From Cyclobacteriaceae bacterium (GTDB lineage: Bacteria > Bacteroidota > Bacteroidia > Cytophagales > Cyclobacteriaceae), in NCBI GenBank assembly GCA_035303945.1, contig DATGQZ010000015.1, positions 70,100 through 134,099 on the forward strand: DNA of 64,000 nt. Direction: 5' to 3'. Made by a program: the position numbers. The first letter of the stretch is position 1; each line of letters opens with the position of its first letter. Below are positions 24,001 to 33,000 of the stretch, piece by piece.

Positions 24001-27000
24001 TTATTAGCGTTTCCCTCGCCCGACCATACCGCTCCTGATATTTGCGTCTCTCACAATCCAAATCCTGGCAAATAAACTGGAAAAGATCATCATCGAATGT
24101 CTCCCCAATTTTCAGTGCAACCATTTCAAAAGACAAGTTATAGCGCTGTCTTAAATCTGTTAGTCGGCTGACCGCTTCATAAAAAGATTTACCTATATGT
24201 CCTTCAATACGTAAAAAGTCGCAGCCCTCCATCCTGTATATTAGAGGATCATCAAAGGGTTGATCCTGTGCCCTGTAGTAGCTATAAACTTTACCCGCCT
24301 TTCCTAATCTTTTTAACCTTGGCGACCAGTCATTTATTAGGCCTAAGTGATTGTCGTAATAAAATGGAAAAGCCCGCTCACTCAGCGGCTGTCTGTCGGA
24401 TTTGCTTGGGGTGATTCTGATTTGAAGGTCATCTTTATTATCCGGCACTTTAAAAATGTTACCGTTTATCAGGGTGCTCAATTTTTTGTAGTGCGTGATG
24501 GTTTCTGAAAGCCGACTTTGGTTACCATTGTAAATAGGTGGTTGGGTATAGGGGGTTCTATAGATACTTAATTGGTTGCTTTTTTCAGCATCTACAAAAC
24601 CTTTTAACCATAGGAACCTGGGAAAACGGTGTAGGTGTGGCTGACAATCAGCTACCAAATCAAAAACGGCTTCCATCAATTCCCCATACGCATGAACCAT
24701 ATCGCACAAATAATCGTGGAGATATTGAATGTTAAGTTTATAGTGATCATTCTCTAACACAGCATCAATTTGCTGGCTTATGGAGACCCCTTCCACAAGT
24801 TTATCTCCGCTCGAAAGCATGGGCACAAACACGGGGGAAAAAACTTTGTTCACCTCATCAAAAACCGTATCCAGCCTAGAACCAAGCCTTTTGATGATAA
24901 GTTGATAACGCTCAATAAACATATCGTAAGTACTAATATCATTTAGCCTTACTGTGTTATCATCTTTGAAACCGAATCTCTCAATAACTGGGTGGATCGT
25001 TGAAAATTTGTGATAAAACAGTTCTTCCATGTTGTCAAAAACCCCACCTAAATGGCGATTATCCGGATCGTAAGTCGCTTGTAGAATCAAATCGGCAATT
25101 TCCTTTTCTAGTAGAATATAGCGGTTGACAAATGTCTGAGATTTGCCTTTCTCATCGCAGTCGTTGCCACAGAGTCCCTGATCTTTATTTTCCTGCCTTT
25201 CGAGTACTAAAACCAAGATTTTTCCCTGTAGGTCACCTTCAATCAGAACAACGAGGTCTTCATCCTCACCTGTTTTCTTTACCAATTCAAAGGCCTCGAG
25301 ATCATCATCCAAACCAAGCACTAATTTATCTTCTCCCGTTCCAAACCAATTTAGGTCTAAGTCAATTTTCCGGTAGCTGTCCAATGCTATATCACTAGGT
25401 TTCAACAAGTATCCTTCCGAGGTCACACCGGTGCCAGCGGACACATATAAGACATTTTGGGTTTCGTCCCAAATGGGTTTTAACCCGCAAACAATACCTG
25501 TTCCCATCAAGCAGATTCTGGAAAGGCGATCCTGTTGTTCCAAGTATTTAACGACGTCGTTTAATTGACTTTCCCTCAATACTTGGTTGGCTTTGAAAAT
25601 AGGGTAGTGCTGAATAATTTCCTGGTTTTTCATGGCTTCTATGAGTTTGAAGACCCTATGACAGAGTAATTGAGAACAATACGATTACCGTCTTCTGATG
25701 GTCTCTGACAATCGTAAAGACTTGCTACTGGATACACACTTCGAAGTTTGCAAAGGGTTTTGACCATTTCGTTTTTTGCTTCTATGGCTTTGCATGCTTC
25801 TATTCCTGATTGGGTTGTGGAAACCCATTTACAGTAAGCATCTTCAAATTCCTTCATATCCATAGGACCCACCCAGCAAATCCTCAGAAAGACATGGGCA
25901 GGAGCTTCTTGCCTGAGCGTGGTTTCGATAAACTGACGAAATTCGGGCTTCTGAAACCTGGCGGGCCAATAGGGGAGCACCACCGTGGCCCGGAAAGAAT
26001 AAGGATCATAGTACTTCCCTGGTACAGGTTCCCCGGCGATATGGTAGTCCAGGATGGGTTTCATCAATTCGCAGCCTATAAGGTCGCGATCGAGTTTGAG
26101 AGAAAAGACTTTTGCGGCCAAACTACCGGTGAGGTTTGGTGAAGTAGTCGGTGCTTCTTCCAGGTCTCTGATGCTTTGGATTAGACTGTTAAGCCGCTCA
26201 TCCCGCTTCTCTTTGCTGCTAAATCCGCCATAAGATTTTGCAATTATTATATTTCTGGTATCCTTTACAGAAGGTGCGAGAATGTTGAACGAATAGGGGC
26301 ATGGTGCTTCAAGATCGTCGACTTTTTCGACCAAACTTTCACCGCCCGCTTCGTTGGCATGTTTCCAAAGGGATGTCCATACTTTAAGGTATCCATTCCA
26401 AGCCTCCGCTTCACTGGGAAAACTTATTTCTCCCTGAAGAATGGGTGAATCTAGTTCCTTGTCGATCAAATCGAAGCGATAGGACTGCTCCATTTTGATC
26501 TTCCTGGGGCGCAAAAGGATGTGTTCTACTAAATGTAGTCCCTCCAAACTGATCGTAGATCTGGCACTTTGTATGGCCCTATCTCTTTCATTCGCCGTGG
26601 TATAGTAGGTTGGATGCTTGGCAATAGGAAGTCCTTGTTTGTCTACTAATTCAAACCCGTACATACATTCCTCCTCATTGGTAATAAGGTTATACCGCTC
26701 CTCATATTGACCTTGTTCATGGATCTTATTCGTGGCTTCTCTGGCAATTTCCCAACTGTGGAAATAGGGACTTTCAAAAAATATCCTATTATCTTTCGTT
26801 ACTCTAACAACATAGGTCACATTTTCCTTGACAGTTTTGACCTTCCCGAGGTTTCCACAATCCAATGGGCCACCTAATGCCAAAAATGCCCTCAAATGAT
26901 CGCGAGCTTCTAAGGCTTTTTCTTGGGTTTCGAAATGCGGCTGCACCTTGGCGAGAATAGTGTCCTCTCGATCAAACAAAATCAACTGCCAACCGCCCTC

Positions 27001-30000: not shown

Positions 30001-33000
30001 ATTTTCTTCAGGGATGGATGCCAGCGTGTCTAGATGTTCTTGAAGTGCATTACAGTAGTGGTCAATAGTTGGGAAACGTTCGGTTCCAATGGCCAACTCT
30101 TCTCCAACTTCGCGTTTTAGTACAAACGCATATTCATAGTCACTATTGACATCAAATGTCAACCGTCTGTAATAACGCTCATTTCCGATATATTTTTGCC
30201 ATGCACTGAGTGCATCACAAGCTTCCTGTTCCGTTTCCCAATTTGAAGTGCTTTTTATCAAACAATCGTCAAGTTTATAAATCTCAAGAGACCAGCCACC
30301 CGGATTTTTATCGATTGTTGCATTGCCCAGCTTTTGCCATGAGTTATTATTAACTCCAATGAGCTTAGCCACGCGCATTTCCAAGCCTGAAACATTTTCA
30401 AATTTTGCATTGCTATCGATTTTGTTTGATTCTCCACAATCATTTTCACCTGCGCAACCTACAGGTTGCGTGTAGTCAAAAGCCTTCCCTCTATTCCTGC
30501 TGATTTTTGGATAGCTACTGAGAAAATCGGATTTATCCCGGACTACCCGTTTCTGGTCATGCTTTTTTCCATTGACTTCAAACATGAGGAGAACATAATC
30601 AGAAAAAGATTCAGAGAACCTTGCCAGCAAATGATCCAAAAACCTATTTCTCCTCTCATAATAATTTTCGAGGTCTTCTGCTATATATTGTAAATAGGTA
30701 GGAAAATCTTCAGGCGGCAGATTATCATGCTGATTGCCTTCACATGCATTATAGTTTACCAATAGCTCATGGATGCCCGGCACTTCGGATAAAATCTGCG
30801 TAAAATAGGTGTGCGTTTTGCCGGTGCCGCTCTCATCTTGGTTTATAGAGAAAAGATCCCTCACATGCGCCAATTGAGAAAGGTAGTTGGCCAAAAGCTG
30901 GTCGAAGAAAAGCAGATATCCTTTAAGTTGATTTGCTTGTCCCTTTCTCTTCACATCATTTAGCCCCTTGATTCCATCTGTCCCTATACCATATGTTTGA
31001 GGAAAATCCTCAACAATGGAAGTGTAATCTTCCAAATCCATGTATTGTCCGTCGGGAATGGGGAGATCCAGTTGATACCCTTCAAGCATGGCCTTAGCTT
31101 TGGCCGCCTTTTCTTCAAGGAATCTTTGTTCTACAATAGATACATTAGAAGTAAAAGGAAGCACACCCTTATAGAAGGTGATTTGAGAATGTCTTAAATC
31201 AAGATGAGGCCGGTATTTTGGGGTAAGGTTCAGACACCATTTTTCCCCACTGTGCATCACCAAATTATCAATGGCTTTCGCAAGGGTCAGGTTTCTAACG
31301 GCAACAACCCCGTCTATATCCATGATAATCCTATAAAAATCGGAGGCGTACAGCCTTTTTTGAGGATCAAGTTTTTTTAGATCCTCTGTATCAATAAACC
31401 CATGACTATCTGCTGATAATGGTCTGCCTTCAAAGATTGCTTCCACGCTTTTTTTCTTCTGTAGCATCTCCTGCAGTGTGTAAAATGGTAGGGTAGGGGA
31501 GAGGTGTTCTTCAAGATTTTTATAAATTGCCAGAAGTACGCTTTCTGGATCTGCAGTAGGCTGAAGTTCTATTTCCGCACAAAGACGAATTTGTTCCTCG
31601 CCATATACATCCACTTTTTTAAGGTCTTCGCACAGATTTCTGTGCGCATTCAATTTTTTATAGACCTCCTGCAAGATTCCATCCTTTGTAAAAAATACAC
31701 TGCCGCAAGCATCCCTGATAAGGAGGGGTTCCAGCTCTAAACATACCTCATATAGACCCTGAATAAAGAAATGTTTTTCTGTTTTGGAATCGGGATTGGC
31801 GTAAACCAGCGAGTTATTCTTTTTGTCTAAAGAAACGGGTATTTCTCCATCCTGGGACAATTCAAACCAGGCATTACGCACTCCCGGAATGTCAATAAGA
31901 AGTTTTCTAAAATCATTAAGCGTTACGGGATTGCAGGAAAGTATCTCGGCTGCGGTAAAAAAATTATCGTCGGTGGGCTTGCCAAATATAGTTTTTGAAG
32001 CCAGGTTTTTATCCTCGGGACTTCTCGCCAAAAGATCCTTTATATCAAAATTTGTTCTATAACCCAGATCTGTTAGCGCATAACAAAGTACTTCAAGTAT
32101 GGTAATACCGGGATCATGGAGGTTGTAATCCGTCCACAGATCACTTCCTAATTTTTCGATGTGCGCTATTCCCGTTTTTCTTAAAAGTTCCCAGTCAAGA
32201 TACTCGGGAAAGCTAGAATTATTCTTGGGGATCGTTAAATTTTTTGGCTTCGCCATAACGGTAAACTAAAGATGGTCCACAAAACGCTATCTTTTAATAT
32301 TGCGCTGTTTCTTATACTGATAGTCGGAGGTTTTGCGGATGAGTAGACGTAGGACCTTGAGGTCCATATGCTTGAAATATTTGTGGAAGGTGAAGCGGTG
32401 GTTCAATAGATCCTATCCACTCGTCAGGATAATTAAAAATAAATAATTAAATAAAATGGAGGAAGGGAAGCGGATCTCACCGTCCTGAATTAATGGAGAT
32501 GATTTTTCTCCAGCGCTTCAATTCTGGATGTCAAGTGATCGATAATACCCTGTTGTTCCTGAATTGCCCTGACAAGCACAGCGTTAAGACTGGAATGATT
32601 GACGGACAATTTGTGGTCATCACCACTTTTTTTTACCATTTCTTCCAAAATATCCTCCACTTCTTGAGACTTCAAGCCAAATTGTTTTCCTTCACCGGAC
32701 AGTTTGGTAGTATGGGTATCCCAATCAAAAGCTATGGGCTTGAGTTTATTGATCAGGTCAAGCGCTGTTTTTTTCTTGGAGTTTTGAAGATAGTTTTGCA
32801 AGGGTTCTTCGTTCGATATATGGTTTGAATCTGAATCGATATAGAGAGAAAATGTTCTGGCTACTCCATTGACATCCAGATGGAAATCACCGGGCGTTCG
32901 CATGATTCCGACCTTTCCGTTCCTTTCAGGGAAAAAGACCGCTTTCCCCTCCATTTTCCGTTCCTTATAGGGGAAGAGTTGTAGCAAAATATCACCTTGG

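What the first reader, a model, noticed from the sequence alone, without database searches (positions are those of the whole stretch)
26167..30309. Array of about 25 YegP/DUF1508-like modules inserted in a 2205-aa baseplate protein
The gene at 25639-32256 has baseplate-type N-terminal (~600 aa) and C-terminal (~170 aa) parts. Between them I count roughly 24-26 consecutive 50-55-aa modules. The recurring pattern is: aromatic-x-F/L-x-L-x-D/N, then G-x(2,3)-[ILV]-[AL], then Y/F-x-[ST]-x(2,3)-[EA], then an amphipathic helix. Examples are 'YGFELLDKDGNVIAKSASSYATEAESKMAVLAI' and 'FRVALVDPEGEIIATHPHQYESDGEVKTAILLL'. This resembles the YegP/DUF1508 consensus (F-x-L-x-x-x-N-G-E-x-I-A-x-S-x-x-Y-x-S). 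I am not aware of that small domain family, whose function is unknown, being described as a structural array on a contractile injection system. The units are strongly diverged at DNA level, so this is an old array maintained by selection rather than recent slippage. It could form a cage or fibre-like decoration around the baseplate. As I recall, baseplate extensions forming a cage were reported for AlgoCIS. It could also be a multivalent binding surface.
Basis: partly seen in the sequence, partly recalled or inferred. Interest (0 to 1): 0.8.

Follow-up and report, generated by a model that had tools for sequence, protein, structure and literature searches.

The report
YegP-domain array in CIS baseplate protein
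A baseplate protein of a phage-tail-like injection machine carries 26 small YegP-type (DUF1508) modules, folded as 13 two-module beads; this is a much longer form of the arm that attaches the Anabaena system to its membrane, so it is a new variant and not a new kind of thing.

Summary
Gene 25639-32256 (-) encodes a 2205-aa Cis12/Alg12/Afp12-type baseplate wedge protein. Residues 654-2033 (window 26158-30297) hold 26 modules of about 52 aa, with 23-24 statistically supported. Two alternating types form 13 two-module units.

Homology to DUF1508/YegP holds on five independent tests: Pfam, profile against PDB, hhalign, AlphaFold plus Foldseek, and reciprocal retrieval of canonical DUF1508 arrays.

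The array is old and under purifying selection. No DNA repeats remain, orthologues keep every module without indels, and dN/dS is 0.20.

The array is also not unprecedented. The solved Anabaena tCIS Cis12 (PDB 7B5H) carries five such pairs. These are its published 'extension', the wide connector to the thylakoid membrane, which the tCIS paper describes without a domain-family name. Alg12-type proteins carry one pair.

New here:
- the domain assignment;
- growth from 1 to 5 to 13 pairs;
- occurrence in a probable Bacteroidota host;
- co-variation with the Cis13 partner, a 160-aa membrane anchor with short arrays and a 600-720-aa soluble fibre with long arrays.

Most likely function: six long acidic peripheral arms that work with the Cis13 fibres. 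This function is inferred, not shown.

The parts
25639..32256 (-). Cis12/Alg12/Afp12-type baseplate wedge gene, 2205 aa
   Evidence: ORF list and translation. phmmer against the PDB: 7b5h_AD E 3e-196, Alg12 E 6e-119, also Pvc12 and Afp12. Same gene order in orthologous locus L082.
30298..32256 (-). N-terminal gp6-like wedge part, aa 1-653
   Evidence: Aligns to All3315 residues 2-719 and Alg12 residues 6-597. Many invariant residues across 15 homologues. dN/dS 0.085 against the orthologue.
26488..30297 (-). Insertion site 1: modules 1-24 (12 B-A pairs of YegP/DUF1508-like modules), aa 654-1923. The last module runs into the invariant core motif.
   Evidence: Module HMMs, independent profile and shuffles. 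Alignments A1 and A4. AF2 of aa 1128-1438 and aa 1180-1279. Foldseek.
26506..26544 (-). Invariant core motif EGLHLVEHILLRP, aa 1905-1917, where the chain most likely rejoins the conserved baseplate body
   Evidence: Nine of its 13 positions (E1905, G1906, H1908, E1911, H1912, L1914-P1917) are invariant in 15 diverse homologues. Aligned to Alg12 EGIYLVEHILLRP. Alg12 residues 717-993 are used as 'baseplate ring' in PMC13314943. The rejoining itself is inferred.
26158..26487 (-). Insertion site 2: modules 25-26 (one further B-A pair), aa 1924-2033
   Evidence: Module HMM hits at aa 1926-1953 and 1986-2032. The motif-to-DPYSF spacing is 166 aa here, against 25-74 aa in 51 of 102 homologues.
25639..26157 (-). 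C-terminal conserved domain, aa 2034-2205 plus stop. Homologous to the Alg12 C-terminus that docks the Alg19 fibre.
   Evidence: Aligns to All3315 residues 1210-1334 and Alg12 residues 780-926. Function of the Alg12 C-terminal loop is taken from PMC13314943.
32490..34559 (-). Cis13-type fibre gene, 689 aa: Cis13 baseplate-binding N-domain, long soluble fibre, Peptidase_S74 chaperone end. Its length co-varies with the Cis12 array.
   Evidence: aa 1-95 match All3316 residues 1-92, E 1.5e-16. Peptidase_S74. No TM helix. Co-variation across loci.
34588..38292 (-). Cis11/Alg11 homologue, 1234 aa: the wedge partner and the actual cage-forming protein
   Evidence: All3317 E 6e-188 over aa 11-1232; Alg11 E 8e-133. 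Cage assignment from PMC8894135 and PMC8894136.
21362..25633 (-). Alg19/Cis19 (All3314) homologue, 1423 aa: the fibre or crown protein that docks on the Cis12 C-terminus in AlgoCIS
   Evidence: All3314 E 1e-106; Alg19 (9wt0_a) E 7e-49. PMC13314943.

Best explanation
**What it is (shown).** The gene encodes the Cis12-type wedge protein of a complete contractile injection system locus. Two loops of this protein have been expanded with YegP/DUF1508 modules. The modules fold pairwise, B then A, into compact pseudo-dimeric beads of about 100 aa like stand-alone YegP. Twelve beads sit between the gp6-like N-terminal body and the invariant HLVEHILLRP core motif. One more sits between that motif and the C-terminal fibre-docking domain.

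**How it most likely works (inferred).**
- Both ends of the array are fixed in the wedge. Each of the six Cis12 copies would therefore project a long, strongly acidic (net -85), looped or hairpin arm of beads from the baseplate periphery.
- This would be the lengthened counterpart of the five-bead 'wide connector' through which the Anabaena tCIS baseplate touches the thylakoid membrane.
- Here the partner Cis13 is a ~690-aa soluble fibre with a chaperone end, not a 160-aa transmembrane anchor.
- I therefore read the arm as a structural strut or outrigger matched in reach to the Cis13 fibres. It would brace or space them and make peripheral contact with a surface, probably a target cell envelope in an extracellular mode.
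- Because it sits next to the fibre-docking C-terminus, it could also pass that contact on to the wedge.
For: **Identity**
- Searches support DUF1508 homology and the fold.
- One search supports Cis12 homology of both ends.
- Searches show a complete CIS locus.

**Pairing**
- The B-A pair model has pLDDT 95.8 and pTM 0.85.
- In the 6-module model, pLDDT drops to 62 and 55 at two of the three A-to-B junctions. The B11-A12 junction stays at 94-95.
- The array starts with a B module and ends with an A module.
- The pair profile aligns collinearly with both YegP repeats.

**Structural role**
- All3315 holds exactly five such pairs, at aa 637-1163. This coincides with the 'extension aa 610-1100' that forms the wide connector (PMC8894136).
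- Foldseek matches 7b5h_AD, so some modules are ordered in a real particle.

**Anchoring of both ends**
-.

**Selection and fixed number**
- dN/dS is 0.20.
- There are 0-4 gap columns over 1380 aa against orthologues of 58-74% identity.
- Orthologous modules are 33-82% identical; paralogous modules are 22-26% identical.

**Co-variation with Cis13**
- 5 of 5 short-array loci have a 157-162-aa Cis13 with a TM helix.
- 7 of 7 long-array loci that have a Cis13-like gene carry a 591-724-aa version without one. Two of these are cyanobacterial.
- About 59 loci with a Cis12 of 1055 aa or less (0-2 modules detected) have no Cis13-like gene directly upstream.

**Charge and membrane segments**
- Net charge is -85 and no hydrophobic segment is present.
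Against: - No structure or localisation exists for any long-array system. The protein's presence in particles is assumed from homology.
- The relative arrangement of beads is not predicted with confidence (pTM 0.47 for six modules). I had no coordinates, so the shape (rod, loop or coil) and the reach are guesses.
- The co-variation rests on 12 loci.
- Position-specific conservation of each module would also fit specific ligand binding.
- Two large-Cis12 loci lack a detectable upstream Cis13-like gene: L035, and L004, which has no upstream flank. The Chitinophagaceae-type 2100-2200-aa Cis12 proteins also lack one.
Confidence: 0.55

Rival explanations
1. Multivalent binding surface. Each YegP-like bead is a ligand- or receptor-binding unit, so the arm acts as an adhesin that recognises the target and is not a passive strut.
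For: - Each module is conserved in a position-specific way: orthologous modules are 33-82% identical, paralogous ones 22-26%.
- A-type modules carry a conserved surface-like H-P..Y motif.
- The AlgoCIS authors call the gp7-like part of Alg12 a hotspot for re-engineering (PMC8894135).
- DUF1508 occupies sensor positions in Menshen NsnA proteins (PMC12065111).
Against: - No ligand is known for any DUF1508 protein.
- dN/dS of 0.20 and a fixed module number are unlike fast-evolving receptor-binding tips.
- The locus already encodes two dedicated fibres, Cis13-type and Alg19-type.
- In Anabaena the homologous region contacts a membrane, and sfGFP-Cis12 alone stayed cytoplasmic in E. coli.
Confidence: 0.2
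2. Intracellular membrane anchor. As in the Anabaena tCIS or the Amoebophilus T6SS-iv, the arms hold an intracellular CIS against a host membrane.
For: The closest solved homologue does exactly this (PMC8894136). The locus is closest overall to the tCIS: Cis11, Cis12, Cis13 N-domain and Cis19 all have their best hits in 7B5H.
Against: - The host is most likely a Bacteroidota without thylakoids. The nearest named orthologue is Negadavirga, and the flanks hold SusC-like TonB receptors.
- The decisive tCIS anchor, the Cis13 TM helix, is missing. In its place is a 600-aa fibre with a Peptidase_S74 chaperone end, typical of released fibres.
- No amphipathic or hydrophobic segment stands out in the array (maximum KD19 1.19), and the array is strongly acidic.
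Confidence: 0.12
3. Lateral connector. [quoted passage not shown]
For: PMC8894135 proposes that this part of Alg12 homologues mediates superstructures. Six long peripheral arms with both ends on the wedge are geometrically suited to this.
Against: There is no evidence of arrays in any long-array organism. The net charge of -85 would make arm-to-arm contacts repulsive without cations or partners. Co-variation with Cis13 points to a fibre-related role.
Confidence: 0.08
4. Cage or shell around the spike.
For: [quoted passage not shown]
Against: That cage is domain IV of Alg11/Cis11, and the window's Cis11 covers All3317 end to end. In tCIS the Cis12 extension lies at the lateral periphery as the wide connector.
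Confidence: 0.03
5. Nucleic-acid-binding array. The tandem DUF1508 resembles the sPC4/Whirly topology.
For: The topological resemblance is noted in PMC12065111.
Against: The array carries net charge -85, with 20 of 26 modules acidic. Its context is an extracellular or peripheral machine part.
Confidence: 0.02

Closest known systems
Cis12 (All3315) of the Anabaena sp. PCC 7120 thylakoid-anchored CIS, PDB 7B5H (Weiss et al. 2022, PMC8894136)
   Same: Best hit over the N-terminal body, the array and the C-terminus (E 3e-196). Same invariant motifs. Its 'extension' consists of the same B-A pairs, five of them at aa 637-1163. Same neighbours: Cis11, Cis13 N-domain and Cis19.
   Different: It has 5 pairs against 13 here. 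It has no second-site pair: the motif-to-DPYSF spacing is ~34 aa against 166 aa. Its partner Cis13 is a 154-aa TM anchor, against a 689-aa soluble fibre here. The host is a thylakoid-bearing cyanobacterium, against a probable Bacteroidota here. The tCIS paper describes the extension without a domain-family name, and no paper in the library pairs DUF1508 with contractile injection.
Alg12 of AlgoCIS (Algoriphagus machipongonensis), PDB 7AEB/9WSZ (PMC8894135, PMC13314943)
   Same: Same family (E 6e-119). Same core motif and the same C-terminal domain, which in AlgoCIS docks the Alg19 fibre. The host family (Cyclobacteriaceae) matches that of the nearest named orthologue.
   Different: Alg12 is 933 aa with at most one pair, only weakly detected (E 0.08-0.1). 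Alg12-sized homologues in other genomes show 0-2 modules. There is no Cis13-type gene directly upstream in such loci.
YegP / UPF0339 / DUF1508 (PF07411) small proteins: E. coli YegP 2K8E, SO3888 2K49, HVO_2922-type 6Q2Z
   Same: Sequence profile, collinear two-repeat alignment and fold: beta-beta-alpha-beta twice, as a pseudo-dimer.
   Different: Those are free 60-118-aa stress-associated proteins of unknown function. Here 13 copies are fused into a structural machine part. The A-type modules have a derived H-P..Y motif. Single modules score below Pfam's threshold.
Non-CIS DUF1508 arrays (DUF7139 + 6-8 DUF1508; FtsQ-like + DUF1508)
   Same: Long tandem arrays of the same pair, retrieved by the Cis12 pair profile at E 1e-30 to 1e-42. 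A preprint notes that 'extended arrays' exist in Pfam architectures (10.1101/2024.11.21.623966).
   Different: They have no Cis12 N- or C-terminal domains. Their modules match Pfam much more strongly (E 1e-62 to 1e-78). Their function and context are unknown.
Phage T4 gp6/gp7 baseplate wedge proteins
   Same: Alg12/Cis12 are described as gp6-like plus gp7-like, with the gp7-like part on the periphery interacting with fibres.
   Different: This is a comparison from the literature only. The pair model found no significant match among predicted viral structures.

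Membership tests
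DUF1508 / YegP / UPF0339 (Pfam PF07411) | Whole-protein score above Pfam's gathering threshold | tested here: met
   37 bits against a cut-off of 22, E 3.2e-9. Precomputed PF07411 hits on many homologues.
DUF1508 / YegP / UPF0339 (Pfam PF07411) | Individual modules recognisable by the family model | tested here: inconclusive
   Only 3 of 26 single modules reach E<1, the best at 0.0045. The signal comes from summing many weak matches.
DUF1508 / YegP / UPF0339 (Pfam PF07411) | Profile-level homology to proteins of known structure in the family | tested here: met
   Pair profile against the PDB: YegP 8e-6, 6Q2Z 7e-4, SO3888 0.017. These are the only non-CIS hits below 0.02 apart from one weak designed repeat protein. 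hhalign probability 87%, E 4e-6.
DUF1508 / YegP / UPF0339 (Pfam PF07411) | Fold: two beta-beta-alpha(-beta) repeats packed as a pseudo-dimer | tested here: met
   AF2 pair model: pLDDT 95.8, pTM 0.85. Foldseek: 2K49 and 2K8E, probability 1.00, TM 0.59-0.60; the next unrelated hit is at E 0.12. This rests on a prediction, not a solved structure of this protein.
DUF1508 / YegP / UPF0339 (Pfam PF07411) | Reciprocal retrieval of canonical family members | tested here: met
   The pair profile retrieves DUF7139-DUF1508 and other arrays that score Pfam E 1e-62 to 1e-78.
Cis12 / Alg12 / Afp12 baseplate wedge protein | gp6-like N-terminal body homologous to solved Cis12/Alg12/Pvc12/Afp12 | tested here: met
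   E from 3e-196 down to 2e-13 across five solved systems.
Cis12 / Alg12 / Afp12 baseplate wedge protein | Conserved core motif and C-terminal domain | tested here: met
   EGxHLVEHILLRP and DPYSF...PAH...W are invariant in 15 homologues and aligned to Alg12 and All3315.
Cis12 / Alg12 / Afp12 baseplate wedge protein | Position in a CIS operon next to Cis11, gp25, PAAR, VgrG, tube, sheath, tape measure and AAA ATPase | tested here: met
   The same order is seen in L082.
Cis12 / Alg12 / Afp12 baseplate wedge protein | Six copies in the assembled baseplate | not testable with these tools
   Needs particle purification with mass spectrometry or cryo-EM.
Thylakoid-anchored CIS (tCIS) as defined for Anabaena | Cis12 extension | tested here: met
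   Same pair array, but 13 pairs in place of 5.
Thylakoid-anchored CIS (tCIS) as defined for Anabaena | Cis13 with a C-terminal transmembrane helix | tested here: not met
   The Cis13 N-domain is present, followed by a 600-aa soluble fibre. Maximum KD19 is 0.86, against 1.9-2.3 in tCIS-type loci.
Thylakoid-anchored CIS (tCIS) as defined for Anabaena | Cis19 crown protein | tested here: met
   The 1423-aa neighbour matches All3314 (E 1e-106), but also the AlgoCIS fibre Alg19 (E 7e-49).
Thylakoid-anchored CIS (tCIS) as defined for Anabaena | Host with thylakoid membranes | tested here: inconclusive
   The contig is a metagenome assembly. The nearest named orthologue is Negadavirga (Cyclobacteriaceae), and the flanks carry CarboxypepD_reg-TonB receptors. 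This points to Bacteroidota, but no marker gene was tested.

The most novel reading that the evidence does not exclude
The YegP-like bead is a length-tunable building block for baseplate arms. Evolution set the number of beads (1, 5, 13 or more) together with the length and type of the Cis13 partner, so the array acts as a molecular spacer or ruler. It would fix the stand-off and geometry between the baseplate and the surface it engages, and perhaps relay surface contact to the wedge that triggers firing. This would give the orphan DUF1508/YegP family its first defined structural role. It would also recast the tCIS 'thylakoid connector' as one setting of a general, widespread device.
Probability: 0.25. 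Interest if true: 0.65.

Novelty: new variant of a known kind. Interest (0 to 1): 0.45.

Why it matters
- **A context for an orphan domain.** It places DUF1508/YegP, a domain family with no known function, in a concrete structural setting: a solved machine (7B5H) in which the domain was not recognised.
- **The tCIS extension is not thylakoid-specific.** The Cis12 'extension' described as a thylakoid-anchoring adaptation appears to be one short setting of an expandable module. It ranges from one pair in Alg12-type proteins to 13 or more pairs in Bacteroidota and some cyanobacteria.
- **A testable rule.** Short arrays go with a transmembrane Cis13 and long arrays go with a long soluble Cis13 fibre. 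This may help predict the mode of action of uncharacterised CIS loci and guide re-engineering of baseplates.
- **Limits.** This refines existing knowledge; it does not reveal a new kind of system. The functional part is inference.

Tried and rejected
- **Self-BLASTP of the protein.** It returned only the identity hit, so I switched to iterated HMMs.
- **First 6-module window alignment.** MAFFT aligned overlapping windows by their identical overlaps, giving a staggered 861-column model. I discarded it and used orthologous segments instead.
- **Single-module Pfam scans.** These were nearly uninformative.
- **DNA repeat searches.** Negative.
- **The listing of cluster members.** It gave no organism names for the closest homologues.
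- **Literature query on Cis12/Afp12/Alg12/Pvc12.** It was swamped by unrelated ALG12 and fatty-acid papers. Two CIS survey papers contained nothing on the extension.
- **Foldseek against predicted viral structures.** No significant match and no phage baseplate protein.
- **Shape of the array.** I could not obtain model coordinates, so nothing could be measured about the arrangement of beads. The low pTM of the 6-module model (0.47) leaves it open.
- **Readings rejected.** Cage: it is formed by Cis11. Nucleic-acid binding: net charge is -85. Recent slippage: there is no DNA similarity and the orthologues are collinear.

Full report
**The locus**

The window carries a complete contractile injection system (CIS) operon on the minus strand.

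| Component | Window coordinates |
|---|---|
| Pvc16-type cap | 45264-46037 |
| Sheath | 42722-44149 |
| Two gp19-type tube proteins | 41751-42665 |
| Small plug ORF | 41511-41672 |
| CIS_tube protein | 40824-41510 |
| VgrG-like spike | 39079-40827 |
| PAAR | 38744-39034 |
| gp25 | 38322-38732 |
| 1234-aa protein | 34588-38292 |
| 689-aa protein | 32490-34559 |
| 2205-aa gene of the finding | 25639-32256 |
| 1423-aa protein | 21362-25633 |
| Tape measure | 19562-21355 |
| Two eCIS_core (DUF4157) proteins | 13421-19279 |
| AAA ATPase | 11060-12412 |

Sequence searches against the PDB identify the large proteins:
- The 1234-aa protein is Cis11/Alg11 (All3317, E 6e-188 over its whole length).
- The 1423-aa protein is the Alg19/Cis19 fibre or crown protein.
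- The first 95 residues of the 689-aa protein are the baseplate-binding domain of Cis13 (All3316, E 1.5e-16).
- The 2205-aa protein is Cis12/Alg12/Afp12 (All3315 E 3e-196, Alg12 E 6e-119, then SalCis12, Pvc12 and Afp12).

**Host**

The contig is a 175-kb metagenome assembly. The nearest named orthologue is from Negadavirga shengliensis, Cyclobacteriaceae (58% identity). The flanks encode CarboxypepD_reg-TonB receptors. I therefore infer a Bacteroidota host, but I did not test this with marker genes.

**The observation**

The homology to solved Cis12 proteins covers aa 1-650 and aa 2081-2205, plus a short internal motif. The 1380 residues in between (aa 654-2033, window 26158-30297) resolve into 26 modules of 47-62 aa.

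Evidence that the modules are real:
- Iterated HMMs seeded with a few modules recover the others, and show two alternating flavours.
- A profile built only from modules of distant, shorter homologues finds 24 modules in the query. One hundred shuffled arrays yield none.
Shuffles gave a mean of 0.14.
- Three modules (numbers 3, 17 and 20) are weak and rest mainly on register.

No repeat is detectable at the DNA level. The refinement is that the repeating unit is a B-A pair of about 105 aa, present 13 times.

**Homology to DUF1508/YegP**

Five lines of evidence agree.
1. Pfam PF07411 matches the whole protein above its curated threshold (37 bits against 22, E 3.2e-9). Single modules are individually too weak: only 3 of 26 reach E<1.
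2. Profiles of the modules or of the pairs were searched against all PDB sequences. Besides Cis12 proteins they find YegP (8e-6), the UPF0339 protein 6Q2Z (7e-4) and SO3888 (0.017).
3. hhalign aligns the B-A pair profile collinearly with both repeats of E. coli YegP. Probability is 87% and E is 4e-6, with B matching repeat 1 and A matching repeat 2.
4. AlphaFold2 supports the fold.
   - Six consecutive modules give beta-beta-alpha-beta units with mean pLDDT 83.5.
   - A single B-A pair gives pLDDT 95.8 and pTM 0.85, meaning one compact domain.
   - Foldseek's best PDB matches for the pair are SO3888 and YegP (probability 1.00, TM 0.59-0.60), followed by the Anabaena Cis12 chain. The next hit is at E 0.12.
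5. The pair profile was run against 1.84 billion representative proteins. It retrieves 1087 proteins at E<=1e-3. These include non-CIS proteins that are canonical DUF1508 arrays by Pfam (E 1e-62 to 1e-78), such as DUF7139 plus 6-8 DUF1508.

Membership in the DUF1508 superfamily is therefore well supported. The modules form a derived subfamily; for example, the A type has a conserved H-P..Y motif.

**Age and selection**

- Orthologues at 58-74% identity (P0001-P0004) are collinear through the whole array, with only 0-4 gap columns.
- Each module is more similar to its positional orthologue (33-82%) than to its neighbours (22-26%).
- Against the P0001 gene, dN/dS is 0.20 for the array, 0.085 for the N-terminal body and 0.15 for the C-terminus.

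The array is ancient, fixed in number within this lineage, and under purifying selection.

**Place in the family**

The array is not unique to this protein.

| Protein type | Modules |
|---|---|
| Query and close relatives | ~26 |
| Some 2300-3000-aa proteins | up to 28 |
| 1230-1460-aa Nostocales proteins | 6-9 |
| 860-930-aa Alg12-sized proteins (Flavobacteriia, Prolixibacteraceae, Geobacter, Desulfobacterales and others) | 0-2; many have two, i.e. one pair |

Two insertion sites exist:
- Site 1 lies between the N-terminal body and the invariant motif H[LV]VEHILLRP (aa 1908 here). It holds modules 1-24.
- Site 2 lies between that motif and the DPYSF C-terminal domain. It is empty (25-74 aa) in 51 of 102 homologues, and holds one pair here and in about a third of them.

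The solved Anabaena Cis12 contains exactly five pairs at aa 637-1163. This region is what Weiss et al. call the 'Cis12 extension' (aa 610-1100). They assign it to the six 'wide connectors', about 5 nm long, that touch the thylakoid membrane. It was only partly modelled, and they describe it without a domain-family name (PMC8894136). No paper in the library combines DUF1508 with contractile injection. A preprint mentions only that 'extended arrays' of DUF1508 exist in Pfam. Automated pipelines already tag these proteins with PF07411, or name them 'YegP'.

**Geometry (inferred)**

- In AlgoCIS, Alg12 residues 717-993 were used as part of the baseplate-ring model. The Alg12 C-terminal loop docks the Alg19 fibre (PMC13314943).
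- The segments homologous to Alg12's conserved motif and C-terminal domain lie downstream of site 1 in the query. The N-terminal body lies upstream of it.
- The 12-bead excursion therefore leaves and re-enters the wedge. It must form a loop or hairpin at the baseplate periphery, next to the fibre-docking site.
- The array has net charge -85 and no hydrophobic segment.
- Inter-bead geometry is not predicted with confidence (pTM 0.47), and I had no coordinates. The reach cannot be given.

**Co-variation with Cis13**

Among loci fetched from genomes:
- Five with a short-array Cis12 (1191-1349 aa) have a 157-162-aa Cis13 with a C-terminal TM helix. This is the tCIS anchor.
- Seven with a long-array Cis12 (2209-2468 aa) have a 591-724-aa Cis13-like protein without a TM helix. 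These include the orthologous locus, Saprospiraceae, Lewinellaceae and two cyanobacteria.
- About 59 with a Cis12 of 1055 aa or less have no Cis13-like gene directly upstream.

The window follows the 'long' pattern. Its Cis13 homologue continues into a repetitive fibre with a Peptidase_S74 chaperone end. This extends the co-conservation that Weiss et al. noted in cyanobacteria. It suggests that the Cis12 arm and the Cis13 element are matched parts of one peripheral device.

**Interpretation**

*Shown:* a Cis12 wedge protein carries 13 YegP-like pseudo-dimer beads at two loop sites. It is homologous to the connector of the tCIS, and it is conserved under selection.

*Inferred (confidence about 0.55):* six long acidic arms act as structural struts or outriggers alongside the Cis13 fibres. 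They probably work in an extracellular mode, contacting or spacing the baseplate from a surface.

*Rivals:*
- a multivalent adhesin (0.2)
- an intracellular membrane anchor, as in tCIS (0.12)
- a lateral connector that builds particle arrays (0.08)
- nucleic-acid binding (0.02), contradicted by the charge

**Verdict**

The structural-array idea is right in spirit, but the cage idea is wrong. The feature is a larger variant of an already visualised element and not something without precedent. I rate it a new variant of a known kind, with moderate interest.

Noticed in passing
window 32490-34559 (-), and loci L002, L003, L005, L008, L012, L017, L082 against L006, L007, L009, L010, L013: The Cis13-type gene comes in two forms that track the Cis12 array. 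With short arrays it is ~160 aa with a C-terminal TM helix. With long arrays it is 590-724 aa, soluble and fibre-like. It is absent directly upstream of Cis12 proteins of 1055 aa or less (0-2 modules). The window's fibre has internal ~95-aa repeats (..TDAPNGFIFKKG.., ..TNAPKGFQILAGK.., ..TDSPGGFVLKQG..) and a Peptidase_S74 end.
   Followed up: partly
proteins P0178, P0184, P0187, P0189, P0190, P0196, P0197, P0201, P0203, P0211, P0215, P0217, P0218 and others: A separate class of ~870-1100-aa proteins consists of an unrelated N-terminal domain followed by long canonical DUF1508 arrays, with no Cis12 parts. Of the six scanned with Pfam, three have DUF7139 and one an FtsQ/DivIB-like region, each with 6-8 strong DUF1508 matches. 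Their function and genomic context are unknown.
   Followed up: partly
loci L032, L045, L048, L059, L068, L078, L080, L081 (Chitinophagaceae / Sphingobacteriales): The Cis12 homologues here are 2074-2202 aa, yet only 0-10 YegP-like modules are recognisable, and there is no Cis13-like gene directly upstream. Their extension may be built from something else or from very diverged modules.
   Followed up: no
window 13421-19279 (-): Two large eCIS_core (DUF4157) proteins sit downstream of the tape measure and are probable cargo or effectors. One (634 aa) has a peptidoglycan-binding domain and a matrixin-like zinc-protease motif. The other (1186 aa) has a strongly hydrophobic segment near aa 736-760. 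The orthologous locus L082 carries an eCIS_core protein with PT-HINT domains at the same position.
   Followed up: no
window 9731-10693 (-): A GH46 (chitosanase-type) glycosyl hydrolase fused to a peptidoglycan-binding domain lies just beyond the AAA ATPase. It is possibly a lysis or release enzyme for the CIS, or another effector.
   Followed up: no
window 26158-26487 (aa 1924-2033): There is a second insertion site for YegP-like pairs, between the invariant HLVEHILLRP motif and the DPYSF C-terminal domain. It is empty in Anabaena Cis12 and in half of the homologues, holds one pair here, and spans 300-575 aa in about ten others.
   Followed up: partly
window 44189-45277 (-): A 362-aa ORF between the cap (Pvc16) gene and the sheath gene has no Pfam match. 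Its position fits the 'cap adaptor' described for AlgoCIS and tCIS. I did not test this.
   Followed up: no
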